This document shows, piece after piece, positions 24,654 to 34,123 of a stretch of 64,000 nucleotides of DNA (the stretch's first letter is position 1; the number at the start of each line of letters is the position of its first letter). The stretch spans positions 48,242 through 112,241 of IMG/VR virus record IMGVR_UViG_3300006925_000007, one strand, 5' to 3'. The notes beneath the pieces were generated by a model. The model worked only from the letters and a program-made list of their open reading frames with translations, did no database searches and was not told the origin of the DNA. Origin of the DNA: a virus. The position numbers and the translations under genes were made by a program.

Positions 24654-27575
24654 TTATTGTTCTCCGCTCATTTCTATTTTTAACTTTCGCATTTCATCTG
24701 CCAGTTGTGCTTCTAGTGTTGCCAATTCAGTTTCTTGGCCTTCTGTTAAAGGAATGTCGCCTTCTACTATTTTTAGTATATCTATAATTTGCGTTTGTAA
24801 TGCTTGTATTTCTGGTGTTACTTGTTTTGCTTCAGTTATCTGCCCTGTATTCATTGCATTTAAAAATTGATTTGCATAATCTGTTCTCTGGTTTAAATCA
24901 GCAGTGCGTCCAGAACTTGTTGCTGTTTTTCCATACACAACTCTATACACGGTATCCATATTTCCTAAATCTGACTTGTATTCTTGCCACCAAGGCAAAT
25001 TAAAATAGGCAGCACTTGCTGCCGCTGAAATATTTGGGTCTAACATCAAGTCTGGATTACCTACTAAATCTTGACCAATCATTTCTCCAACAAGTTTATA
25101 ATTTTCTTTACCTGTTAATTGTATAAAGCCTCGTCCTCTATACTTATAACCTTCACCTTCGTTGCCCATGTCACCACCATATACATAATCAAAAAATGCC
25201 TTAGGATCTTTTTTCAATTTGTCTAGTTGATCATCATTTAAACCTTTAACACGATTGCCCAGTGCTGCTCTAATTCTAATATTAGATGTTTTTGCATATG
25301 ATTGTTCTTCTATCACTCTAAATGCTGATTCGCCTTGTATCATTCCTAATATATTTGCTTGTGCGACAGGGTCAGTAATTCCTTGTTCTTTTAATTGTGC
25401 TATAACTATACCTTGTAAGGAAGACCCTTGCTCATACTCGGATAGTCTATTTCTTCTTATTTTTCCCTTGTCTCCAATATATGATCCCAATTGGTCTTGA
25501 TACGATGCTAAATGCCCAATTCTTTCTTTAAGCATATCTCGTTGATCTATTAATGGTTGTGCAATAGCTTCGGCCTCTGTAAGTTTTTTCTGTGCGTTAA
25601 CTAACTCTAACTGAAGCCCAGAAATATCTTCACCTTTAGTTGATGCTGTTTTAATCTTAGCTTCAATATTGGCTACTTCGTCAACAAGTGTTTTATATCC
25701 TGTTTTCTTTATATCGCTACTTACAATATACATTTCATCTTGTGTAGTTTTTATAAGTGTTCTAATACTGATCATTTCTTTATATGCAGCTTCTTTATTC
25801 GCTTTGTCTACAATGGCGTTACTTTCATCATCATACCCCGGAACTGTGTTTGTTTTAATCGGTGCTGATCCGCCAACAGAATAATTATGATCTATATAGA
25901 ACCGCTCGCCTGGACCAATATGTTTTTTGTCTTTTTCCAATGCTAGTTCCATACTAGTTTCTGCCGTGCGATCTAATCCAAATATATCTCTCCAGAAGTC
26001 AGCAAATGTTCCTACTGAACTTTCCAACACTCCCATCACTGTTCCCATTGTTTCAAATCCTGGAGTAAAGGTATGTTGAGCTTTTAAGAATGCTTTACTT
26101 AGTCCACCAAGAATTTCAATTGAATCGTCTGCTCCATCAATTGCCTCGCTTGCTGATTCCATCTTTGCTCTCATTTCTGCTTCGGTGCCTGAGAAATATT
26201 CTTCTGGCAATAGATTCATGCTTGCTATTAATCTATTGACTTCGATACTTGTGGGATCTATACCTGATAGAGTAGGAGAGTTTTTTATAAGTAATAGTAT
26301 TTCTCTAAATTTTGCAGCATTTTCTTCTGGTCCATTAATTTTTCCTTGTGCACCAGTAGATAAAAAGTCCATCATGCCTTCAAAGACTCCTGGATCAAGT
26401 CGTTGTAGCATTGCTGCAAGTTGTTCATTTTGTATATTATTAATCGCTGAAGTATCATACTGAATGTCTGAAACTGTGCCAGTGAATGTATCTGTTAACA
26501 TTTTTGTAATCGTTTCGCCTAGTGTTGCATTGCCTAGCATAGCAAGCCAGTCTGCTGATTCTTGAACCTTCTTTGCTGCTCCCTCACCATATGTTTTATT
26601 TAAATATGCAGAATTTTGATGCATCGCTAATTGAAAGTCTGCATCTTCTCTTAGCATTTTTCTTGATTCTAATAAAGCACTACGTTGCACACCCAATGTA
26701 TCAGCTAGATATATTCCCATAGAGTTTGCTGCTTCAAAACTGTCTATAACTCGTGTTTGATCAGCGTCATTAAGTTCATTAATTTGATTAAGTTTATACA
26801 ACTGTTCTGATTCTTCTGCTAGTAAGCCTGATAACACTTTTGGACTATATCCAAAATTTTTAACTCTTTTTATTTTCTTATCATCGGTTAAAAAATTACT
26901 CATCAATCCTTGTCCTGATACTAAATTGTTCTGTCCTATATTAACTAAAAATTCTGATGTATTCTGAACCATTGCTGCATAATCTGTTAATGACATACCG
27001 GCTGCAACAGCATTACCACGCATGTGTGTATAATCTGATGTATTACCTAATACCATTCCCATATCAATCATTGTTCGTAGATCTTTTTCTTGCGTTGTTA
27101 TTATTTTGGCAAAGGCTGCGCCGACACCTGTTAATGCAACTGCACCGCCTGTTGCCCAAGAAAATCCACTTGCTACTTTACCTATTTTACCACCTGCTGA
27201 TGCTAAAGAGCTTGCTGCATGATCCATTGCTTCAGCACCTGCACCAGCAAGTTCGATCATTGATTCGAGTCCAGATTGTGAACTGCCGGATAATGATGCT
27301 CTGCCCAGCCTTCGTATGTTTTTGTCTGCCTGTTGCAACTTCTCCCTGCCGTCTATTACCGACTGATCAAGCTGGTTTGCTGTTTCTTTAATATTATTAA
27401 GCAATGCTTTAGCATCAGAAGCCGAGTTCAATCTAACAATAGCAGTAGCCAAAGCCGTAGTTTTTATACTGTTTGACCTTGTTAAACCGGCTAACTGTTC
27501 TGCGGTTTCTTCACCTGCCCACGGATATTGTGAGTAGACTGCTTTCATTGTATATTGTAATTCGTTCTGATCCAT
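24654..27575 (-). CDS. Tape-measure-like tail protein A with GH19-type (chitinase/lysozyme-fold) peptidoglycan hydrolase domain
   Basis: 973 aa, helical. ANILGMIQGES and GYKYRGRGFIQLTGKENY...DLVGNPDL motifs of phage GH19 enzymes. Confidence 0.75.
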   Translation of the reverse strand: MDQNELQYTMKAVYSQYPWAGEETAEQLAGLTRSNSIKTTALATAIVRLNSASDAKALLNNIKETANQLDQSVIDGREKLQQADKNIRRLGRASLSGSSQSGLESMIELAGAGAEAMDHAASSLASAGGKIGKVASGFSWATGGAVALTGVGAAFAKIITTQEKDLRTMIDMGMVLGNTSDYTHMRGNAVAAGMSLTDYAAMVQNTSEFLVNIGQNNLVSGQGLMSNFLTDDKKIKRVKNFGYSPKVLSGLLAEESEQLYKLNQINELNDADQTRVIDSFEAANSMGIYLADTLGVQRSALLESRKMLREDADFQLAMHQNSAYLNKTYGEGAAKKVQESADWLAMLGNATLGETITKMLTDTFTGTVSDIQYDTSAINNIQNEQLAAMLQRLDPGVFEGMMDFLSTGAQGKINGPEENAAKFREILLLIKNSPTLSGIDPTSIEVNRLIASMNLLPEEYFSGTEAEMRAKMESASEAIDGADDSIEILGGLSKAFLKAQHTFTPGFETMGTVMGVLESSVGTFADFWRDIFGLDRTAETSMELALEKDKKHIGPGERFYIDHNYSVGGSAPIKTNTVPGYDDESNAIVDKANKEAAYKEMISIRTLIKTTQDEMYIVSSDIKKTGYKTLVDEVANIEAKIKTASTKGEDISGLQLELVNAQKKLTEAEAIAQPLIDQRDMLKERIGHLASYQDQLGSYIGDKGKIRRNRLSEYEQGSSLQGIVIAQLKEQGITDPVAQANILGMIQGESAFRVIEEQSYAKTSNIRIRAALGNRVKGLNDDQLDKLKKDPKAFFDYVYGGDMGNEGEGYKYRGRGFIQLTGKENYKLVGEMIGQDLVGNPDLMLDPNISAAASAAYFNLPWWQEYKSDLGNMDTVYRVVYGKTATSSGRTADLNQRTDYANQFLNAMNTGQITEAKQVTPEIQALQTQIIDILKIVEGDIPLTEGQETELATLEAQLADEMRKLKIEMSGEQ

Positions 27576-27607
27576 TGGTTTCCTTTAATTAACTGGTATT
27601 TTAATTA

Positions 27608-27640
27608 GATAAATACATTTATACTGTAACAGTATTTATG
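27608..27640. promoter_or_regulatory. Face-to-face pair of late promoters (GATAAATA on +, 27608-27615; CATAAATA on -, 27633-27640)
   Basis: Both motifs lie in the 75-bp gap between divergent genes. Confidence 0.7.
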
Positions 27641-27650
27641 GAGATTAAAT

Positions 27651-28481
27651 ATGACAAACCCATTAATACAGGCTTATAGAAAGCCTGTTTTGTATGTATC
27701 GCTCCCAAGTGGTGGGAAATTTTACGATACAAAGCCAAAACTTAGTGTAGACGGTGAATTAGCCATTTATAGCATGACTGCTAGAGATGAGTTAGTTTCA
27801 AAAACACCAGATGCATTATTTAATGGCGAAGCTACGTTCAGCTTAATTCAAAGCTGTGCGCCTGATATTGGCAATCCAACTGAAATGCCAGTGAACGACC
27901 TTGTTGTTATTTTAATTGCAATACGTATGGCAACTTACGGAGATGCAATTGATGTGGATGTAAAATGTCCAGAATGCGACAATATGAACCAATTGACTGT
28001 GAGCACAAATGCTCTATTAGGTTCAGTTAAAGAAAATGTTGCATTAGATAAGGTTACACTCGATAACAAGTTTGTAATTAAGGTCAAACCTTATAACTTG
28101 CACGATAGAACTAAGTTACAAATACAACGACTTAAACAACAGAAATTAATTCAAAACTTAGCCGATGCAGAACTAAGTGATGAACAACGTCAAAAACAAT
28201 TTGGCGAAACGTTTTTAGAAATTGCAGATTTAACTGTAACTCTTATTGCAAATGCAATTATACAGGTTAAGCCACCAGAAGGCGATACAGTCGAAGATGA
28301 ACATCTTATACTTGAATGGCTGAAAAGTATAACCAAAGAAGATTATGATAAGATCAGAGAAACAGTTGAAGAATTAAGTGAAAGTGGTGTTGATACTAAG
28401 TTTGATGCTGAGTGTATTGAATGTAAACATACATGGAACACTAACATAGATTTGGATATTGCAAATTTTTTCGCGGGTTGA
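27651..28481 (+). CDS. gp26: Baseplate hub/tail assembly protein (gp26-like)
   Basis: LYVSLPSGG, MTARDE, ILIAIRMATYG, CPEC and CIEC pairs, C-terminal NFF. Confidence 0.75.
   Translation: MTNPLIQAYRKPVLYVSLPSGGKFYDTKPKLSVDGELAIYSMTARDELVSKTPDALFNGEATFSLIQSCAPDIGNPTEMPVNDLVVILIAIRMATYGDAIDVDVKCPECDNMNQLTVSTNALLGSVKENVALDKVTLDNKFVIKVKPYNLHDRTKLQIQRLKQQKLIQNLADAELSDEQRQKQFGETFLEIADLTVTLIANAIIQVKPPEGDTVEDEHLILEWLKSITKEDYDKIRETVEELSESGVDTKFDAECIECKHTWNTNIDLDIANFFAG
28466..28472 (+). promoter_or_regulatory. Putative -1 ribosomal frameshift slippery heptamer T TTT TTC
   Basis: In-phase X XXY YYZ (AAT TTT TTC GCG GGT TGA); the -1 frame reads CGC GGG TTG ATA GCA, continuous with ORF 28478-28717. Confidence 0.6.
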
Positions 28482-28717
28482 TAGCATCCCGACAACCCGA
28501 AGAAATAACTAAGTTAGTCGAAGACTACAATAAAGACTTAGAGAAAACAGAAGCCAGCTATTTAGATATAATTATCAAATCGGGAGGACTGTTATCATAT
28601 AAAGATGTTATGACGATGCCAGTTGGCTCGTTAACAAAATTTGTTGAAAGGTATAATGCTCACACCGAAGAGCAAAACCAACAAATGAAAGCTGCTCAAT
28701 CCAAGGGCAGAAGATAG
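28478..28717 (+). CDS. gp51: gp51-like baseplate hub assembly protein (probably the frameshift extension of the upstream gene)
   Basis: LSYKDVMTMP resembles the short gp51-like ORFs that follow gp26; TTG start without a clear Shine-Dalgarno. Confidence 0.55.
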   Translation: MIASRQPEEITKLVEDYNKDLEKTEASYLDIIIKSGGLLSYKDVMTMPVGSLTKFVERYNAHTEEQNQQMKAAQSKGRR

Positions 28718-29161
28718 TTATTGATCAAGCATTATGCGTTTATAATACTCTGCAGGCCAACTATCGTAATAAGATGTTTTATGTAATGATGCTCTGCGTC
28801 TAAGTAACTCAGGTCTTATTTGAATTAAAATCAAATCATATATATTTTTAACAAAATGCCCAGAAGTTTTTGTGCTTTTAAAATACATCAAGTCTGGGTT
28901 AAGTTCTTTGATTGTAGTTAGATCAATAGTATCTAAATCTATTTCATCACCGAAGTAACATACACCTACCATTTTTATTCTAGGGTCAAACTCAAGCATA
29001 GCTTCAGGATTAGGACCACTGCAATCTATAAATTGTAGTTTATTTTGGACTCTGGCAGTCTTTGCATACGGACATACAGGATATCCATCATCTTTTAAGG
29101 GTTCAACTTTGGTTATCACCCATTCTAAGAAGTCTTTTTGGAATTGTTCAAATTTACTCAT
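28718..29161 (-). CDS. Hypothetical protein with CPYAK motif (DUF1415-like)
   Basis: 147 aa, W-x-...-PVCPYAK motif; convergent with the gp51-like ORF. Confidence 0.6.
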   Translation of the reverse strand: MSKFEQFQKDFLEWVITKVEPLKDDGYPVCPYAKTARVQNKLQFIDCSGPNPEAMLEFDPRIKMVGVCYFGDEIDLDTIDLTTIKELNPDLMYFKSTKTSGHFVKNIYDLILIQIRPELLRRRASLHKTSYYDSWPAEYYKRIMLDQ

Positions 29162-29196
29162 AGCTATTCATTATCCATTATGTTGTTGTTTATATC

Positions 29197-29239
29197 GATG
29201 TCTTACGACATCATCATTATCGTATTGCTAACGCAATAC
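29197..29239. other. Two perfect tetraloop hairpins
   Basis: GATGTC-ttac-GACATC (29197-29212) and GTATTGC-taac-GCAATAC (29222-29239); loops read GTAA and GTTA on minus. Confidence 0.8.
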
Positions 29240-29303
29240 TCAATGTATGTTTTTAACTCTATATTAATATCTATTAACAATAAGAACTAATTAACTACTA
29301 TGT

Positions 29304-29311
29304 TATTTATG
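29304..29311 (-). promoter_or_regulatory. Late promoter CATAAATA
   Basis: Motif in the AT-rich tract, pointing to the gene at 29161; could be chance in AT-rich DNA. Confidence 0.45.
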
Positions 29312-29337
29312 TTAGCTTATTTCCTAGATTTTTTATT

Positions 29338-29647
29338 CACACTTAGCTTGTTACAGCCAAGTGCAAAATATTCATTTCCCGTCAAGAATACCCACTCGTT
29401 ATAGTAAAACCTTATTAGCACAAGGTAGTGGCGGTTAAGCGATACCACTTTACATACTGCTTATTAACGCAGAAACACTCTAAGCCATAACGACGACTGT
29501 CGAGCTATCCGTAAGTTCCAATTGTCAGGAGAGCTTACTCATTTCGGTTTGTCAAACCAATGCATTGACAAGGCACACCAGTTCCAGACACTTATGTATC
29601 TTCAAGGTGAGTCGAGCTTATCCCGACCAATCGGAGCCATGTGAGCC
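29338..29647 (-). ncRNA. Putative large structured non-coding RNA (family not recognised)
   Basis: No ORF of 60 aa or more; visibly GC-richer than its flanks; about nine helices including a multibranch junction; five helices contain G-U pairs on minus that would be A-C mismatches on plus. Confidence 0.6.
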
Positions 29648-29680
29648 TGTGTTAGTTTTGTGTTAGTTTTGTGTTGGTAG
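29648..29680. repeat. 11-bp tandem repeat x3 (TGTGTTAGTTT, third copy degenerate)
   Basis: Units at 29648, 29659 and 29670. Confidence 0.85.
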
Positions 29681-29774
29681 ATATTAGCGTTGTAATAGTA
29701 ATTATGTGATACTTTAATTATCTGCTGATAATAACGTTAAAACGTTATTTCTTGTTATTAGCATAACATATGTG

Positions 29775-30227
29775 TTATAGCTTGTCGACCTTTTTTAAAT
29801 GTTCTGTGAGAATCTTTGAACTGCCAACTCTCACATTAATGATACCATTGTAGTATTCATCTGATTCTAAAACTTTACGATCAAATTGTTCTTTTGCTTC
29901 CAAATAACTTAGAACTCCTCTACTAGGACAATAATACAAAATTTCTCTTGTAAACTTATCTTCTCCTAGTTCAAGGACATCTGCATTTAAGTGATCTGAA
30001 GAACCCCAATAAGTTTTCCAATCACTTTCTTTAGTGCCACGTCTTTTGTTTTTTTTGCCTTTAAGAGGCGGTTTGGTTGTTTTAAACTTTGCCAGCTTCT
30101 TACCTATATATTTCCGGCCGTTGGTAGTATTTGTGATTAAATACACAAATCCTTCTGCCTCTGGAGGTATTTCATCAACTATTATATTGTTATGAGTCCA
30201 ATCGCTAGTTTTTCTTTTGCTTGTCAA
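29775..30227 (-). CDS. Stand-alone GIY-YIG (Seg-like) endonuclease
   Basis: GFVYLITNTTNGRKYIGKK, YWGSS, FTREIL, YLEAKEQ, YYN motifs; 150 aa with no appended DNA-binding domain. Confidence 0.85.
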   Translation of the reverse strand: MTSKRKTSDWTHNNIIVDEIPPEAEGFVYLITNTTNGRKYIGKKLAKFKTTKPPLKGKKNKRRGTKESDWKTYWGSSDHLNADVLELGEDKFTREILYYCPSRGVLSYLEAKEQFDRKVLESDEYYNGIINVRVGSSKILTEHLKKVDKL

Positions 30228-30348
30228 TGTTTGTTTCTTTTAATAGTTTTTGCAAAATGTCATGGCCAATTAAATTCTCATTAATTTTTATTGCAGGCCA
30301 AAATTCCCATTGCAACGGCAGTTTCTTTATTTCTGCGTGATCACGCAT
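30205..30348 (-). CDS. Small hypothetical protein (47 aa)
   Basis: Read manually: ATG overlaps the gp46 stop (ATGCGTGA) and gives MRDHAEIKKLPLQWEFWPAIKINENLIGHDILQKLLKETNIDKQKKN; fills the gap to the GIY-YIG gene. Confidence 0.5.
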   Translation of the reverse strand: MRDHAEIKKLPLQWEFWPAIKINENLIGHDILQKLLKETNIDKQKKN

Positions 30349-32116
30349 CAATAACTTCTAACTCTACGTTAAAAGTAGTGAAACCGTTTTCTTTAGTAAC
30401 TTGTAAAACATTATCAACTCTACCCACTAGTTCATCTCTATGACTAATAAGTAAAATGTTTTTATGTCTTTCTCGTTCCATCTTCTTTAATACACCTAAT
30501 GCACTTTCAACACCAATTGTATCCATTCCGCTGTCAACTAATTCGTCAATACAAATTAAGTTAATAGGATGATTCATACTTTCGAATACATCACGGAAGC
30601 TCCAACTGAGTCCAAGTATAAGTCGATTACGTTCACCACGTGATAAGTTATCAAAATCTAAGTCTTGTCCTAACTGTGTAATTGTTACAGTCAAGTCGCT
30701 TTGGAATTGCACTTCATGTGGTAAGCCTAAACGTGTAATATAATACTCTAATCGAGTATTTAAGAATTGTAAGTTTTGTTCAATAATTTTCTTACGAACA
30801 AAACTATCCTTGTTTGTAAGTAGCTTCAATAAAAAGTCTTGATGCTCCTTTAGTTCTGTAAGTCTATTTACCTCTGACCAGTCAACTTCCTGCAAACCAG
30901 TGTCTTTTAATGCGGTTATTTGTTCATCATATGGATTTTGCTCATCTTTAATGCGAACTAACTCTGTTTCAACTAATCCGAGTTTACCTTGATGTTCATA
31001 CGCTTCTTTAACACTATTGTAATGCATCGTGGGTGCTTTGTTAAGTGGTCCTATGTCATTTAATGCATTATTATACTCATTAATCTTAGTATTATAATCA
31101 TCTATATGCTCTTGGCTTTCTGTTACTGCCTCTGTTTTTTGCTTAACAAGTTCTTCATGTTTCTCATCATGTAGTTCTTGTCCACATGCATAACATTTAT
31201 GATCTAACGTATCATTAAGATCCTTTTGTGCTTTGTTTAAGCGTTTTTGTTCTCTATCGTTAGTGCTGGTTAGTCTTGCTATTTCGGCAGTTAACGTATC
31301 TATTTGTTGCTTCTGACTAGTAAATTCTTCATAGTCTGTGTGTGCTTTTAGTTCAACTTCAATATCAATATGTTGCAAGTTTAACAGCTCTGTTTCTAAG
31401 TCTTGCAAGTCTTTATCACGCTTTGATTCCCATACTGTTTGCCTGCGTTCTAAGTCTGATATACTTTTACCAATACGTTCGTTTGCTTCTTCTGTGCCAC
31501 GAATACGATATGTTTCTTCTGTTATTTTGTCTTTACTAATCTTTGTAAGTTCTTTTAGTATTTCTGCCTTTTCGCTAAGTTTAGTAATACCTAGTAACTG
31601 TTCAATCATATCACGTTGATCAGTTGCTCGCATACTAAGGAAAGGTTCTGTGTAAGTATTCAATGCAACAATGTGCTTAAACATTGTATGACCCATACCA
31701 ATTACACGTTCAATTACACGTTGACTTTCACGGCCTTCGCCTTGCATTTCATCAGTAATTTCTCCGTCACTGCCTGCGCCATTAACAAGGAATTTAAAAA
31801 TGTTTGGCTTACGCCCACGCTCTACACGATACTCAATTCCATTCATTTCAAAGTCAACAGTAACTAACATACCTTTGTTGTTTGTTTTATTAACTAAGTT
31901 ATCTTTCTTAATATTATATAATGCGTTGCCAAACAATGCATAACTTAATGCATTAATGATTGTTGTCTTACCTGTTCCGTTACGTGACCCATCGCCACCC
32001 AAGTCCATGTTGTTACCCAACACAAGTGTTAGTCCTGCATTATCAAAATGGACAGCCTGTGTGACATTGCCCACACTCATAAAATTTCTTACAGTGATAT
32101 TTTTAATTCTTAGCAT
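30341..32116 (-). CDS. gp46: Recombination endonuclease ATPase subunit (gp46/SbcC/Rad50-like)
   Basis: Walker A NGTGKTT, CYAC zinc hook, LSRGE signature, ICIDELVDSGMD Walker B/D-loop, ISH H-loop. Confidence 0.95.
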   Translation of the reverse strand: MLRIKNITVRNFMSVGNVTQAVHFDNAGLTLVLGNNMDLGGDGSRNGTGKTTIINALSYALFGNALYNIKKDNLVNKTNNKGMLVTVDFEMNGIEYRVERGRKPNIFKFLVNGAGSDGEITDEMQGEGRESQRVIERVIGMGHTMFKHIVALNTYTEPFLSMRATDQRDMIEQLLGITKLSEKAEILKELTKISKDKITEETYRIRGTEEANERIGKSISDLERRQTVWESKRDKDLQDLETELLNLQHIDIEVELKAHTDYEEFTSQKQQIDTLTAEIARLTSTNDREQKRLNKAQKDLNDTLDHKCYACGQELHDEKHEELVKQKTEAVTESQEHIDDYNTKINEYNNALNDIGPLNKAPTMHYNSVKEAYEHQGKLGLVETELVRIKDEQNPYDEQITALKDTGLQEVDWSEVNRLTELKEHQDFLLKLLTNKDSFVRKKIIEQNLQFLNTRLEYYITRLGLPHEVQFQSDLTVTITQLGQDLDFDNLSRGERNRLILGLSWSFRDVFESMNHPINLICIDELVDSGMDTIGVESALGVLKKMERERHKNILLISHRDELVGRVDNVLQVTKENGFTTFNVELEVIDA

Positions 32117-32122
32117 ATTATA

Positions 32123-33145
32123 TTAATTACTTAATCCTTGATAAATGTCAATCAACATTTGTTTCTTGATAGTTTCACTTTGCACAGATTCTAATTGCGA
32201 CAACACAATTGTATCTACATTTTCCACTTCGATATCAACACCTTGTTGCCAGTCGTTTGTGTGTTCTTCTTTTTTACTTGGTATCAAACTAATCTCACGT
32301 AAGTCATATTGTTTAGCAAATGTTTCTTTAATAAAGTTTGCTTCTTCATATGTAATACCTACATCAAGTGCCACACGAGCATATGTTTTGTCTGCTAGAT
32401 ATTTTTCTGGGCTATCAATAAGTTTGCTTAATGGCAGTGTGCGATACTTTGGTGCCTCTGGCCAAGGTAGATAATCTATCTTACCAGCCCAGTCTAAGAA
32501 CATACAACCTCTATCATCATCCCATGCATCACTAAAGTTATGTGGGAAGCAGTTGCCCGGATAAATTACATTACCACGTTCTTGTCGTTTGTGAAAGTGT
32601 CCACTAAAAACTTTTTCAGGGCCTCTTAGGTCTTCTGCTTTAAGTCCACCATGGTCTGGCATTTGAACTAATGCATTCATATAAAACTGTGGAAGTTCAA
32701 AATGTCCAAACATATATTTGCATTTTACTTCCTTTACTTTCTTCCATTCATCATCAACAAGCCAGGGGATAAAAGCAACATCATCTTCAATTAACATAGT
32801 ATCATTTACAATGCGTATGTTAGGATATTCCTTACCCATTGGGATACTATGTATCTCACGCTTTTCTCGATAATATAAATCGTGGTTGCCCATAATCATA
32901 ATAACCTCATCAAAGTTATCATTGAGTCTACGTAGATTACTTACTGTATAATTTAATGTGCTTACATTAATTGTTGCTCTGTGATGATGCCAATCTCCCA
33001 AAAAGAAACATTTTTTAATTCCTCTTTTGTGTGCTTCATCAATCATCCATATAATAAAATCTTCACAGTCTTGATTATGTAACCGTGAATTGTTTTTATT
33101 ACCTAAATGAATGTCAGTGAATATTACTGCTTTATCAAATAGCAT
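32123..33145 (-). CDS. gp47: Recombination endonuclease nuclease subunit (gp47/SbcD/Mre11-like)
   Basis: Metallophosphoesterase motifs DIHLG, GDWHH, GNHD, GHFE, SGHFH. Confidence 0.95.
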   Translation of the reverse strand: MLFDKAVIFTDIHLGNKNNSRLHNQDCEDFIIWMIDEAHKRGIKKCFFLGDWHHHRATINVSTLNYTVSNLRRLNDNFDEVIMIMGNHDLYYREKREIHSIPMGKEYPNIRIVNDTMLIEDDVAFIPWLVDDEWKKVKEVKCKYMFGHFELPQFYMNALVQMPDHGGLKAEDLRGPEKVFSGHFHKRQERGNVIYPGNCFPHNFSDAWDDDRGCMFLDWAGKIDYLPWPEAPKYRTLPLSKLIDSPEKYLADKTYARVALDVGITYEEANFIKETFAKQYDLREISLIPSKKEEHTNDWQQGVDIEVENVDTIVLSQLESVQSETIKKQMLIDIYQGLSN

Positions 33146-33163
33146 ACTTGGTGTTACCTCTTT

Positions 33164-34048
33164 TTATTTTTTAGCTGCGGCGTTTTCGGCGTTCATTTGC
33201 CTAATCTTCTCAATCTCTTTTTTCTCTTTGCCTTCCCATTCAGCATTAAATGTTCTAGTGTGACTTGGATTAAGACCTGCTTCTTCTAGTAAGTCGTCTC
33301 TAATATTTTGACTACGCTTTTCTAAATTCAATACTCTAGTAAAGCTATTGTTAATAGCCGCAGTGTAATACGCAAAAGGGTTTTGCGATTTAAACTCATT
33401 AAACTGTAATCCAATTTGACTAAGTTGAACTAATGCCTGCCCACGCATCTCATCTACATATGTGTAACCACGCCAGTTGCCTCGCATACTATAACGTTCA
33501 CATAGTTTAATATACATTCCGCCTAGTTGATTTGTTGTGCCACCGTGTGTAGTGTTAAAGTAACCATTATCTAATCCACCTTCCCAATGACTTCTAGCGA
33601 CTTCTTTGAGGTTTCCTTCTTGATAAGCATAATGCTTAAACGGAGGGAAGTTACATTTACTATGTAAGTCTGCCTCTGTTTTGGGTTTGTTTTTTCTATT
33701 CTCTAATGGAATGTGATCAAATGTCATTACACGAATAACAATATCTGTGTCTAGTATTGTGTCTACTTCAACTAAGAAATCTGCTACTCTTGGTTTAGTT
33801 TTCTTGCCTGTTAGTCCTTGCTCCCAACGTTTAACTTCGGCTTCATGTGCTTTCTTTTGTAAACGTGTTGCACGTGATTGTTTTGCTTCTGCTACAGCAT
33901 CCGGTGTAATATCTTCAAATGTTTCAACGATCAAATCATAATCTGCATACTGATCATCATTCACATAACAATAGGACATCTTAGATTTATGTATTTCTTT
34001 TAACAACTCTTTGTTTGTTAAGTAAAATTGTTTTGGTGCTCTTGCCAT
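33164..34048 (-). CDS. gp55: Late-transcription sigma factor (gp55-like)
   Basis: YLTNKELL, NWRGYTYVDEM, NPFAYYT...NSF...EK motifs; located upstream of gp47/gp46. Confidence 0.8.
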   Translation of the reverse strand: MARAPKQFYLTNKELLKEIHKSKMSYCYVNDDQYADYDLIVETFEDITPDAVAEAKQSRATRLQKKAHEAEVKRWEQGLTGKKTKPRVADFLVEVDTILDTDIVIRVMTFDHIPLENRKNKPKTEADLHSKCNFPPFKHYAYQEGNLKEVARSHWEGGLDNGYFNTTHGGTTNQLGGMYIKLCERYSMRGNWRGYTYVDEMRGQALVQLSQIGLQFNEFKSQNPFAYYTAAINNSFTRVLNLEKRSQNIRDDLLEEAGLNPSHTRTFNAEWEGKEKKEIEKIRQMNAENAAAKK

Positions 34049-34115: not shown

Positions 34116-34123
34116 CATAAATA
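34116..34123 (+). promoter_or_regulatory. Late promoter CATAAATA
   Basis: Precedes GGAG and the ATG at 34140. Confidence 0.75.

What the first reader, a model, noticed from the sequence alone, without database searches (positions are those of the whole stretch)
29338..30227. Minimal GIY-YIG nuclease followed by a ~310-nt highly structured RNA: candidate nuclease-ncRNA system
Seen: the longest non-coding gap in the window lies directly downstream of, and co-oriented with, a 150-aa GIY-YIG gene. On the minus strand its core folds into helices at 29611-29627, 29586-29601, 29549-29571 and 29511-29538. A long-range 9-bp stem (29485-29493 with 29396-29404) encloses three hairpins (29457-29472, 29427-29449, 29410-29425), and a 3' hairpin lies at 29340-29363. 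Five helices need G-U wobbles that exist only on minus, which favours RNA over a DNA cruciform. GGAUA(A)GCUCGAC occurs twice (29499-29510, 29611-29623). Established: GIY-YIG homing endonucleases such as I-TevI use separate C-terminal DNA-binding domains, and HEARO and OMEGA RNAs are structured RNAs paired with compact nucleases. This protein has only the catalytic domain plus a basic insert (KFKTTKPPLKGKKNKRRGTK). Inference: the RNA may bind, guide or regulate the nuclease, or act as a replication/recombination primer, since it ends the gp55-gp47-gp46 block. I do not recognise it as tRNA, tmRNA, RNase P or a group I/II intron.
Basis: partly seen in the sequence, partly recalled or inferred. 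Interest (0 to 1): 0.88.

Follow-up and report, generated by a model that had tools for sequence, protein, structure and literature searches.

The report
Conserved phage RNA beside swappable nuclease
The gene-free gap holds a real, roughly 300-base folded RNA gene that is conserved in over a hundred uncultured marine giant T4-like phages. The small GIY-YIG nuclease gene in front of it is an exchangeable neighbour, not a proven partner, and the RNA's job is still unknown.

Summary
Window 29162-29774 is the longest ORF-free gap. Its minus strand carries a GC-rich RNA of about 300 nt (about 29640-29335). Most are backed by compensatory changes in 30-36 non-redundant homologues from at least 117 IMG/VR contigs. 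An extra closing helix, P0, also emerged.

The gene upstream is a genuine stand-alone I-TevI-type GIY-YIG nuclease. The proposed RNA-nuclease system is only partly supported:
- The window's closest relatives (gp46 92-100% identical) keep the RNA at 83-87% DNA identity.
- In those relatives an unrelated PD-(D/E)XK nuclease (PF24608) replaces the GIY-YIG cassette, with sharp breakpoints.
- GIY-YIG homologues also occur without the RNA, for example in phage Melnitz and P-SSM2.
- I saw no guide-like variable segment.
- However, all 116 RNA loci with enough flank have one of the two nucleases adjacent.

No Rfam model matches. The nearest catalogued thing is the Polynucleobacter-1 motif (RF01718). 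Its 2010 description places it downstream of PSSM2_218-like genes, which I show are this GIY-YIG family, and its 3' flank aligns to this RNA's 3' domain.

This scan had already flagged the same RNA family in two other genomes. The function remains unknown.

The parts
29335..29640 (-). Structured non-coding RNA gene, about 300 nt. The ends are approximate: the 5' end is set by helix P0, and the 3' end by hairpin P10 plus the conserved GUGUGAAUAAAA tail.
   Evidence: GC island. Fold z -2.76. Covariation. At least 117 IMG/VR homologues.
29572..29638 (-). P0 closing helix: GGC 29636-29638 pairs with GCC 29572-29574. It encloses P1 and P2/P3 as a three-way junction.
   Evidence: Two pairs switch between G-C and A-U across clades (AU:18/GC:14 and AU:17/GC:16). 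82.8% of cells pair, against 22-48% slid. RNAalifold run per clade also predicts it.
29610..29628 (-). P1 hairpin, GGUCGGG-AUAAG-CUCGACU, followed by the near-invariant CACCUUGA.
   Evidence: 100% paired; the top pair is GC in 29 sequences and CG in 7.
29576..29609 (-). P2 (CACC 29606-29609 with GGUG 29576-29579), enclosing the variable hairpin P3 (29586-29601).
   Evidence: P3: 5 of 6 pairs show double changes. P2 is invariant, but it was fixed by the search pattern, so it carries no information.
29549..29571 (-). P4 hairpin (GUCAA...UUGAC). It may be pseudoknotted: UUGA at 29602-29605 could pair with UCAA at 29565-29568.
   Evidence: The hairpin is present in the MFE fold. The clades have different hairpins here, each covarying within its clade as judged by eye. 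The pseudoknot rests only on complements conserved in both clades and was not tested by covariation.
29511..29538 (-). P5 helix (GUAAG/CUUAC), with the invariant GCUCU internal loop and a small inner hairpin.
   Evidence: 4 of 5 outer pairs and 2 of 2 inner pairs show double changes. GCUCU is invariant in 36 sequences.
29396..29493 (-). 3' domain: the long-range 9-bp helix P6 (29485-29493 with 29396-29404) encloses P7 (29457-29472), P8 (29427-29449, with the invariant CCGC of the ACCGCC motif; the next C is >=90% conserved) and P9 (29410-29425).
   Evidence: P6 is 96.6% paired with 8 of 9 pairs covarying. All 4 pairs of P9 and 3 of 5 pairs of P8 covary.
29340..29363 (-). P10, the 3' hairpin. 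It is not followed by a U-run. In the second clade it carries GNRA tetraloops (GCAA, GAAA, GAGA).
   Evidence: Alignment. 74% paired in the uncorrected alignment. No terminator call on the minus strand.
29648..29675 (-). 2.5 copies of an 11-nt tandem repeat (ACTAACACAAA on the RNA strand) directly 5' of the RNA. The last copy runs into CTAACACAGGC. It could be a promoter or a protein-binding site.
   Evidence: Tandem Repeats Finder. CTAAYAYAGGC is conserved in the window's clade but is not enriched across the window.
29775..30227 (-). 150-aa stand-alone GIY-YIG nuclease gene with a TTG start inside the end of the upstream small ORF.
   Evidence: PF19835 5e-34 and phrog_447 2e-36. Y29, Y40, G42, E110 and N127 are invariant; R94 is at least 90% conserved. 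AF2 pLDDT 91.8. I-TevI catalytic domain Z 8.3, PD-T4-3 6.5, T4 EndoII 5.6, UvrC 5.5.
29679..30207 (-). The exchangeable nuclease cassette (529 bp). In six near relatives it is replaced by a 526-bp PD-(D/E)XK cassette.
   Evidence: blastn homology at 83-95% stops at 30208 and resumes at 29678 (29675 in L083). The replacement ORF matches PF24608 at 8e-25.
29304..29310 (-). ATAAATA late-promoter-like box (CATAAATA) between the RNA and the next gene. It probably marks the start of a separate late transcript.
   Evidence: ATAAATA occurs 18 times against 30 expected. By my reading of the coordinates against the ORF list (checked for the sites in 26000-34000), these sites fall between ORFs. TATAAATA occurs 0 times against 8.5 expected. 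Its function as a promoter is inferred.
28718..29161 (-). 147-aa gene of unknown function downstream. It is conserved in the window's clade only.
   Evidence: tblastn 38-84% identity in clade A loci and absent in clade B. No Pfam match.
30341..34048 (-). Upstream block: gp55-like late sigma factor (33164-34048), gp47/Mre11-like (32123-33145) and gp46/Rad50-like (30341-32116). A 48-aa ORF (30205-30351) bridges to the nuclease.
   Evidence: Metallophos, AAA_23 and SMC_N hits. 43% identity to the annotated PA5oct late sigma factor, E 2e-75. gp46 is 48.5% identical to PA5oct.

Best explanation
Two separable things sit side by side.

(1) An RNA gene. A single-copy gene for a compact, multi-helix non-coding RNA of about 300 nt is read from the minus strand. 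The 5' domain is a three-way junction (P0/P1/P2-P3) followed by P4 and P5. The 3' domain is closed by the long-range helix P6, followed by the terminal hairpin P10. It belongs to a large family of uncultured marine giant T4-like phages (PA5oct-related, estimated genome about 370 kb). That family is absent from Rfam and looks like a divergent, longer relative of the Polynucleobacter-1 motif region. The gene lies at the end of the gp55-gp47-gp46 block and ends before a late-promoter-like box. Most likely it is made with, or just after, the recombination genes. I infer, without having shown it, that it acts as a trans-acting structural or protein-binding RNA, and not as a guide.

(2) A nuclease slot. 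The position just 5' of the RNA uses a shared TTG start embedded in the preceding small ORF. In this phage it holds a stand-alone I-TevI-type GIY-YIG nuclease. In the closest relatives it holds an unrelated PD-(D/E)XK nuclease, which cultured relatives annotate as a putative Holliday-junction resolvase. The two cassettes replace each other by recombination through the conserved flanks.

Shown: the RNA structure and its conservation, the cassette exchange, the nuclease fold and its catalytic residues.
Inferred: the transcription pattern, the trans action, and that the two nucleases do the same job.
For: RNA is real and strand-specific:
- z -2.76 on the minus strand against -1.23 on the plus strand, and a GC island.
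- 96% and 84.7% of cells pair, against 26-45% in the slid controls, with 12 and 17 covarying pairs.
- P0 covaries.
- At least 117 IMG/VR loci carry it. There is one copy in the window's own record.

Not catalogued: no Rfam hit at the gathering score or at E up to 10.

Independence from GIY-YIG:
- The cassette breakpoints are sharp, and the RNA-side flank is 83-87% identical in the PD-(D/E)XK-bearing relatives.
- Of 116 RNA loci with enough flank, 95 have GIY upstream, 17 have PD-(D/E)XK upstream and 4 have PD-(D/E)XK downstream.
- 20 of 68 GIY loci lack the RNA. Melnitz and P-SSM2 have the GIY homologue without the RNA gap.
- Five GIY-type records lack PD-(D/E)XK and five PD-(D/E)XK-type records lack GIY.

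Slot occupant looks like a core nuclease: the PD-(D/E)XK protein is 43% identical to PA5oct gp342, which also lies near gp46.

Link to Polynucleobacter-1:
- Its authors place it downstream of PSSM2_218-like genes.
- PSSM2_218 is 43% identical to this GIY-YIG protein, E 7e-24.
- The 3' flank of the Polynucleobacter instance aligns colinearly with profile positions 228-370.
Against: - No expression data exist, so the transcript ends and the timing are inferred.
- The RNA's function is not established by anything here.
- All 116 RNA loci have a small nuclease gene adjacent, in three different gene orders. Distant Polynucleobacter-1 RNAs also follow GIY-YIG homologues. A functional RNA-nuclease link therefore remains possible.
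- The mutual exclusion of the two nucleases rests on records that are at most 44% complete, and the searches were run without a positive control.
- The Polynucleobacter link rests on a 10.7-bit profile match plus shared gene context. The RF01718 motif part itself does not align.
- The homologue set was collected with a 20-base exact pattern, so invariance of P2 and CACCUUGA is partly imposed.
Confidence: 0.6

Rival explanations
1. The RNA and the adjacent nuclease form a functional unit whichever nuclease fold is present. For example, the junction-rich RNA could bind or hold back a structure-specific DNA nuclease as a branched-nucleic-acid decoy or scaffold. Alternatively, it could act in cis on nuclease mRNA stability or translation, as a 3' UTR element in most lineages and a 5' UTR element in the L082 lineage.
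For: 116 of 116 RNA loci have a small nuclease gene adjacent, in three arrangements: GIY then RNA, PD-(D/E)XK then RNA, and RNA then PD-(D/E)XK. Polynucleobacter-1 RNAs also follow GIY-YIG homologues. GIY-YIG has a conserved basic beta-hairpin, and the PD-(D/E)XK protein starts with a basic tail. No terminator separates the GIY gene from the RNA.
Against: A single RNA that is 83-87% identical at the DNA level would have to serve two unrelated folds. The region between gp46 and the baseplate-hub gene holds only a few genes, so adjacency may simply be inherited synteny. PA5oct and Phosso keep the PD-(D/E)XK gene near gp46 without a detectable RNA. GIY homologues work without the RNA in Kyanoviridae.
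Confidence: 0.17
2. Both nuclease cassettes are selfish free-standing homing endonuclease genes, comparable to the T4 seg and mob genes. They compete for one insertion site and use the extremely conserved RNA gene or the gp46 end as cleavage target and homology arm. On this reading, adjacency reflects target choice and not a shared function.
For: The cassette replacement is precise between flanks that are 83-95% identical. GIY and PD-(D/E)XK are distributed patchily among sublineages of one clade. GIY copies occur in several other genomic contexts. The best fold match is I-TevI, and the Pfam family is named after SegE. From memory, T4 SegB sits in the tRNA gene cluster (Brok-Volchanskaya et al. 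2008); I did not check this here.
Against: There are no empty sites among 116 loci. No DNA-binding domain follows the catalytic domain; only about 20 residues do. The family is very large and strongly conserved, with over 7,900 clusters at 90% identity, many 76-99% identical to the query, and homologues in 339 Synechococcus phage records. That looks like a core gene. The PD-(D/E)XK protein is a conserved neighbour of gp46 even in PA5oct and Phosso.
Confidence: 0.13
3. The element is mainly a 3'-end or insulator structure of the early/middle recombination operon. It would protect the transcript from 3' exonucleases and separate it from the downstream late unit, with no function in trans.
For: It is co-oriented with the upstream genes, with no terminator before it. 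A late-promoter-like box follows directly. The terminal hairpin is conserved.
Against: About 300 nt with ten helices, GNRA loops and blocks of invariant unpaired bases (GCUCU, ACCGCC, UUGA) is far more than a stabiliser needs. In the L082 lineage the RNA is not at the end of that operon.
Confidence: 0.07
4. It is a DNA-level element, such as a replication origin or cruciform, or it hides a small protein-coding gene (the 43-aa ORF 29317-29448).
For: The 43-aa ORF recurs in close relatives.
Against: Many conserved G-U pairs would be A-C on the other strand. Compensatory changes preserve pairing, not codons. The small ORF was listed only in one near relative (L175) among the ten loci inspected at a 45-aa cut-off.
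Confidence: 0.03

Closest known systems
Polynucleobacter-1 RNA motif (Rfam RF01718; Weinberg et al. 2010, Genome Biol 11:R31, PMC2864571)
   Same: It comes from aquatic metagenomes and has unknown function. Its authors state that most copies lie downstream of GOS11034/PSSM2_218-like genes. I show that this gene family is the same as the window's GIY-YIG (43% identity, E 7e-24). The 148 nt that flank the Polynucleobacter instance on its 3' side align colinearly to the whole 3' domain of this RNA: P7, P8 with ACCGCC, P9 and the terminal hairpin.
   Different: The RF01718 covariance model (141 positions) hits neither the window, nor its own record, nor 5 related records, nor 36 related loci, even at E up to 5-10. 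The catalogued motif part does not align to this RNA's 5' domain. The family here is marine, lies in giant T4-like phages, and is about 300 nt long with a different 5' three-way junction.
GOLLD and ROOL large 'ornate' RNAs of phages and prophages (Rfam)
   Same: They are large, elaborately folded, phage-associated RNAs with strong covariation and no known function.
   Different: There is no sequence or model match. This RNA is smaller. No tRNA genes were found in the window, whereas by my recollection GOLLD and ROOL usually sit near tRNAs. Self-assembly was not tested.
OMEGA / HEARO guide RNAs (TnpB, IscB, IsrB)
   Same: In both cases a structured RNA is encoded next to, and co-oriented with, a compact nuclease gene.
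   Different: Those nucleases are RuvC (with or without HNH) proteins of around 400 aa, and their RNAs carry a variable guide. Here the nuclease is a 150-aa GIY-YIG or a 181-aa PD-(D/E)XK, the two are interchangeable, no guide-like segment is seen, and co-occurrence is not obligate.
Free-standing GIY-YIG endonucleases of T-even phages (Seg proteins) and T4 endonuclease II (DenA)
   Same: The catalytic fold and residues are the same. The Pfam match is to the SegE N-terminal domain. T4 EndoII gives Z 5.6. EndoII is also a stand-alone domain of similar size. In Melnitz the homologue follows nrdA-nrdB, which by my recollection is where T4 keeps denA.
   Different: It lacks the C-terminal DNA-binding domain of Seg proteins. 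It has a conserved basic beta-hairpin insert. Neither homing nor host-DNA degradation has been shown.

Membership tests
Polynucleobacter-1 RNA (RF01718) | Scores at or above the Rfam gathering score (37 bits) with the family covariance model | tested here: not met
   No hit at E up to 10 in the window region or the own record, in 5 related records or in 16 loci at E up to 5. Nothing at the gathering score in 20 loci.
Polynucleobacter-1 RNA (RF01718) | Lies downstream of a GOS11034/PSSM2_218-family gene, as the describing paper states | tested here: met
   Paper text. PSSM2_218 against the window GIY-YIG gives 43% identity, E 7e-24. 95 of 116 RNA loci have this gene upstream.
Polynucleobacter-1 RNA (RF01718) | Sequence homology to published members | tested here: inconclusive
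   The 3' flank of the NC_009379.1 instance aligns to profile positions 228-370, but at only 10.7 bits. The motif part itself gives no alignment.
GIY-YIG nuclease superfamily | GIY and YIG tyrosines, conserved Arg, catalytic Glu and Asn, and the alpha/beta fold | tested here: met
   PF19835 5e-34. Y29, Y40, G42, E110 and N127 are invariant and R94 is at least 90% conserved in 36 sequences. I-TevI Z 8.3, EndoII 5.6, UvrC 5.5.
Seg-type free-standing homing endonuclease | A C-terminal DNA-binding domain after the catalytic domain | tested here: not met
   The Pfam domain covers residues 10-130 of 150, and only one helix (138-148) follows. Most relatives are 130-170 aa.
Seg-type free-standing homing endonuclease | Sporadic presence or absence between close relatives, with sharp cassette borders | tested here: inconclusive
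   The borders are sharp and the distribution is patchy. However, the alternative state is another nuclease and never an empty site.
Seg-type free-standing homing endonuclease | Cleaves the cassette-less allele and is preferentially inherited | not testable with these tools
   This needs enzyme assays and mixed infections.
RNA-guided nuclease systems (OMEGA/HEARO type) | RuvC/HNH effector, obligate pairing with its RNA, and a variable guide segment | tested here: not met
   The effector is GIY-YIG or PD-(D/E)XK. The pairing is broken in both directions. By eye on the alignments, the variable parts are paired or are AU-rich linkers.
Phage PD-(D/E)XK endonuclease PF24608 (the alternative neighbour, in relatives only) | Pfam match above the curated cut-off | tested here: met
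   8.1e-25 and 88 bits against a cut-off of 27. 43% identity to PA5oct gp342, which is annotated as a resolvase.

The most novel reading that the evidence does not exclude
The RNA is the constant core of a ribonucleoprotein that recruits whichever small DNA nuclease is encoded beside it (GIY-YIG or PD-(D/E)XK). It would either aim the nuclease or gate it. For example, it could act as a branched-nucleic-acid mimic that controls a structure-specific nuclease during recombination-dependent replication and packaging. That would be the first RNA-partnered GIY-YIG nuclease.
Probability: 0.07. Interest if true: 0.9.

Novelty: new variant of a known kind. Interest (0 to 1): 0.55.

Why it matters
Large, highly conserved RNAs of unknown function are rare, and past examples have led to new biochemistry. 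This one is abundant in marine giant T4-like phages, sits at a fixed place beside the recombination genes, and is missing from Rfam.

The work also ties three things together:
- It links an orphan Rfam motif from 2010 (Polynucleobacter-1) to a much larger RNA.
- It shows that the 'PSSM2_218-like' gene next to that motif is a GIY-YIG nuclease, widely mis-annotated as 'NAD synthetase'.
- It shows a clean either/or exchange between two unrelated nuclease folds at one slot. That exchange is a natural experiment on what this nuclease does in phages with no obvious T4 endonuclease VII; whether these phages have one was not checked here.

For the specific claim of an RNA-guided GIY-YIG system, the result is mostly negative.

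Tried and rejected
- Rfam: the whole window at the gathering score and the locus at E up to 10 (only a chance IS009 match inside the GIY ORF). Also 20 and 16 related loci. Nothing relevant was found.
- tRNA/tmRNA scan: none.
- blastn of the gap against 50,697 phage records: no match.
- Model R1 on PA5oct and Phosso, both as loci and as whole genomes, and on Melnitz: no match. The 663-nt PA5oct gap at the analogous place folds strongly on both strands, but through palindromic terminator-like hairpins. The four RNA-seq-defined ncRNAs of PA5oct lie elsewhere.
- The 20-base pattern in 185,579 bacterial and archaeal genomes gave 15 hits. None matches R1. By my own back-of-envelope estimate about 30 hits are expected by chance, so I treat them as chance.
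- A 15-mer taken from the Polynucleobacter flank gave 75 IMG/VR hits, none confirmed by the profile. This was a wasted scan.
- CTAAYAYAGGC and TAGGCTAAYA as genome-wide promoter motifs: not enriched.
- Sequence search of both nucleases against PDB chains: nothing.
- The pseudoknot UUGA/UCAA (CUUG/CAAG in clade B) could not be tested, because one strand was fixed by my search pattern.
- I did not build a model of the 3' domain, so P7 and P10 are counted on an alignment that looks misaligned between clades.
Full report
WHAT IS THERE

The window is part of a 112-kb IMG/VR record that CheckV estimates to be 30% complete, which implies a genome of roughly 370 kb. On the minus strand the gene order is as follows.

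- A gp55-like late sigma factor at 33164-34048, 43% identical to the one annotated in Pseudomonas phage PA5oct.
- gp47/Mre11-like at 32123-33145 and gp46/Rad50-like at 30341-32116.
- A 48-aa ORF at 30205-30351.
- The 150-aa GIY-YIG ORF at 29775-30227.
- A 613-nt gap.
- A 147-aa ORF of unknown function at 28718-29161.
- Two ORFs on the plus strand: a 79-aa ORF of unknown function and a 276-aa baseplate-hub gene.

The nearest cultured relatives by gp46 are the giant phages PA5oct, Phosso and Atu_ph07, at 46-48.5% identity. The gap is by far the longest ORF-free stretch in the window.

THE RNA IS REAL

- The core of the gap is a GC island of 0.40-0.49, against 0.20-0.30 in the flanks.
- It folds better than shuffled sequence on the minus strand only: z -2.76 against -1.23.
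These cluster into 37 groups at 93% identity.
- 5' domain, 36 representatives: 96% of cells pair, against 26-37% when the 3' partners are slid by 1-3 columns. 12 of 24 pairs carry compensatory double changes.
- 3' domain, 30 representatives: 84.7% of cells pair, against 39-45% slid, with 17 of 31 pairs showing double changes. The long-range helix P6 (29485-29493 with 29396-29404) is 96.6% paired, and 8 of its 9 pairs covary.
- I add a closing helix P0 (29636-29638 with 29572-29574). Its pairs switch between G-C and A-U across the two main clades. This makes the 5' end a three-way junction.
- Abundant conserved G-U pairs fix the minus strand as the RNA strand.
- The terminal hairpin carries GNRA tetraloops in the second clade and is not followed by a U-run, so it is not a simple terminator.
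- Unpaired invariant blocks (UUGA after P2, GCUCU in P5, ACCGCC in P8) point to tertiary contacts or a binding partner.
- The duplicated GGAUA(A)GCUCGAC is specific to the window's own sublineage.

WHERE THE RNA BEGINS AND ENDS

Homology to relatives that carry a different upstream gene starts at 29678. An 11-nt repeat in 2.5 copies lies at 29648-29675, and P0 starts near 29640. Downstream of the terminal hairpin (29340-29363) and a conserved GUGUGAAUAAAA tail lies CATAAATA at 29303-29310.

ATAAATA is under-represented in the window (18 occurrences against 30 expected), and the exact T4 box TATAAATA is absent (0 against 8.5 expected). By my reading of the coordinates against the ORF list, which I checked only for the sites in 26000-34000, the ATAAATA sites fall between ORFs. 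I therefore take it as this phage's late-promoter core. On that reading the RNA is not part of the late transcript of the next gene. Whether the RNA has its own promoter or is processed from read-through of the recombination operon is not known.

THE NUCLEASE

- The ORF matches Pfam SegE_GIY-YIG over the full model, at 5e-34.
- An alignment of 36 relatives, 39-84% identical to the query, keeps Y29, Y40, G42, E110 and N127 invariant, with R94 at least 90% conserved.
- The AlphaFold model is confident (pLDDT 91.8).
- The best structural matches are all GIY-YIG nucleases: I-TevI catalytic domain Z 8.3, PD-T4-3 6.5, T4 EndoII 5.6, UvrC 5.5.
- There is no DNA-binding domain after the catalytic domain.
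- The basic insert is a family-wide beta-hairpin.
- The family is very large: over 7,900 clusters at 90% identity and 2,226 at 50%, mostly 130-170 aa.
- It is found in 858 cultured-phage records, including 339 Synechococcus phage records, usually annotated as 'NAD synthetase'.

IS THE RNA THE NUCLEASE'S PARTNER?

The synteny gp47-gp46-nuclease-RNA holds in nearly all RNA loci, but the nuclease is not always GIY-YIG. Among the 116 RNA loci with enough flank:

| Neighbour of the RNA | Loci |
|---|---|
| GIY-YIG upstream | 95 |
| 181-aa PD-(D/E)XK (PF24608, 8e-25) upstream | 17 |
| PD-(D/E)XK downstream (L082 lineage, different gene order) | 4 |
| No nuclease adjacent | 0 |

The window's closest relatives (gp46 92-100% identical) all carry the PD-(D/E)XK gene.

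- DNA identity of 83-95% runs up to 30208 and resumes at 29678. In between, a 529-bp GIY cassette in the window faces a 526-bp PD-(D/E)XK cassette in the relatives.
- Both cassettes start at the same TTG inside the end of the 48-aa ORF.
- The RNA-side flank is 83-87% identical across this swap.

In the other direction, iterative profile search finds the RNA after 48 of 68 GIY loci. The other 20 mostly sit in other contexts: 17 have no gp46 nearby and most are followed by ORFs, while L047 and L050 keep the gp47-gp46-GIY-hub order with an ORF-poor gap and L010 has gp46 nearby in reverse. In cultured Methylophilales phage Melnitz the 78%-identical homologue follows nrdA-nrdB, with no room for the RNA and no model match.

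In ten partial records the two nucleases were mutually exclusive. This is weak evidence, because the records are at most 44% complete.

The PD-(D/E)XK protein is 43% identical to PA5oct gp342, which is annotated as a resolvase and also lies near gp46. It is 36% identical to the Phosso 'Holliday junction resolvase'. Neither of those phages has a detectable RNA.

My reading is that the slot holds a nuclease the phage needs, that two unrelated folds can fill it, and that the RNA is a separate conserved neighbour. No free hypervariable segment that could serve as a guide is visible in the alignments.

The invariable adjacency to some nuclease keeps a looser link alive (confidence 0.17). A selfish homing-cassette reading is also possible (0.13). 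It is weakened by three points: there are no empty sites, there is no DNA-binding domain, and the family is conserved like a core gene.

RELATION TO KNOWN RNAs

No Rfam 15 model matches the window, its own record, or 41 related loci and records, including at permissive thresholds.

An earlier follow-up in this scan, on another genome, named the Polynucleobacter-1 motif (RF01718) as a relative. I tested that lead.

- The covariance model never hits. The published motif part does not align to my profile.
- The describing paper says most copies lie downstream of genes resembling PSSM2_218 of cyanophage P-SSM2. PSSM2_218 turns out to be a 145-aa homologue of this GIY-YIG protein: 43% identity, E 7e-24.
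- The 148 nt that follow the motif in the Polynucleobacter genome align colinearly with the whole 3' domain of my profile, at 10.7 bits, covering positions 228-370.

So the catalogued motif seems to be the 5' part of a sister branch of a larger RNA family. The window's RNA belongs to an uncatalogued marine branch with a different 5' domain. I file it as a new variant of a known kind and not as a member of RF01718.

FUNCTION

Nothing here shows what the RNA does. The evidence consists of its size, the multi-junction architecture with GNRA loops, the invariant unpaired blocks, its single copy, and its independence from the identity of its neighbour. On that basis the most likely reading is a trans-acting structural or protein-binding RNA made alongside the recombination genes, in the same broad class as GOLLD and ROOL. 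This step is inference.

PRIOR FINDINGS IN THIS SCAN

Two follow-ups on other genomes (e1-5985122 and e1-5985130) described what appears to be the same RNA family. Their conclusions are compatible with mine.

Noticed in passing
window, whole (for example 27609-27615, 27633-27639, 29304-29310, 34117-34123): The exact T4 late-promoter box TATAAATA is absent from 64 kb (8.5 expected). ATAAATA is under-represented (18 against 30 expected). By my reading of the coordinates against the ORF list (checked for 26000-34000 only), its sites fall between ORFs. This suggests a variant late-promoter core ([C/G]ATAAATA) that is counter-selected elsewhere.
   Followed up: partly
window 30205-30227 and the same place in L165, L083 and L175: The GIY-YIG and PD-(D/E)XK cassettes share the same TTG start and first few basic codons. 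These are encoded in the conserved 3' end of the 48-aa ORF, so the recombination joint lies just inside the nuclease reading frame.
   Followed up: partly
L293:4712-5149 (P-SSM2 PSSM2_218); phrog_447; many Synechococcus and Sinorhizobium phage records: This GIY-YIG nuclease family is widely annotated as 'NAD synthetase'. The fold and catalytic residues show that this is a mis-annotation.
   Followed up: yes
L216:3498-3938 (Methylophilales phage Melnitz): A 78%-identical GIY-YIG homologue sits directly after nrdA-nrdB. By my recollection this is where T4 keeps denA (endonuclease II), so the family might be the marine counterpart of EndoII. I did not test this beyond a fold match of Z 5.6.
   Followed up: partly
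L082, L115, L129, L184: A third phage lineage (gp46 about 49% identical) has a different order: hub gene, then a reverse-strand ORF, then the RNA, then the PD-(D/E)XK gene, with gp46-gp47 on the opposite strand. The nuclease orientation relative to gp46 matches PA5oct, so this may be the older arrangement.
   Followed up: partly
L199:7368-8030 (PA5oct, between gp338 and gp337): This unannotated 663-nt gap lies at the analogous place between the resolvase and the baseplate hub. It is packed with long perfect hairpins (z -9 and -7 on the two strands). It is not homologous to the RNA and is not among the four published PA5oct ncRNAs.
   Followed up: partly
L047 and L050, about 850 nt after the GIY gene: Two loci with the gp47-gp46-GIY-hub order have an ORF-poor, GC 0.41 gap after GIY that my profiles do not recognise. 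It may be a further diverged branch of the RNA.
   Followed up: no
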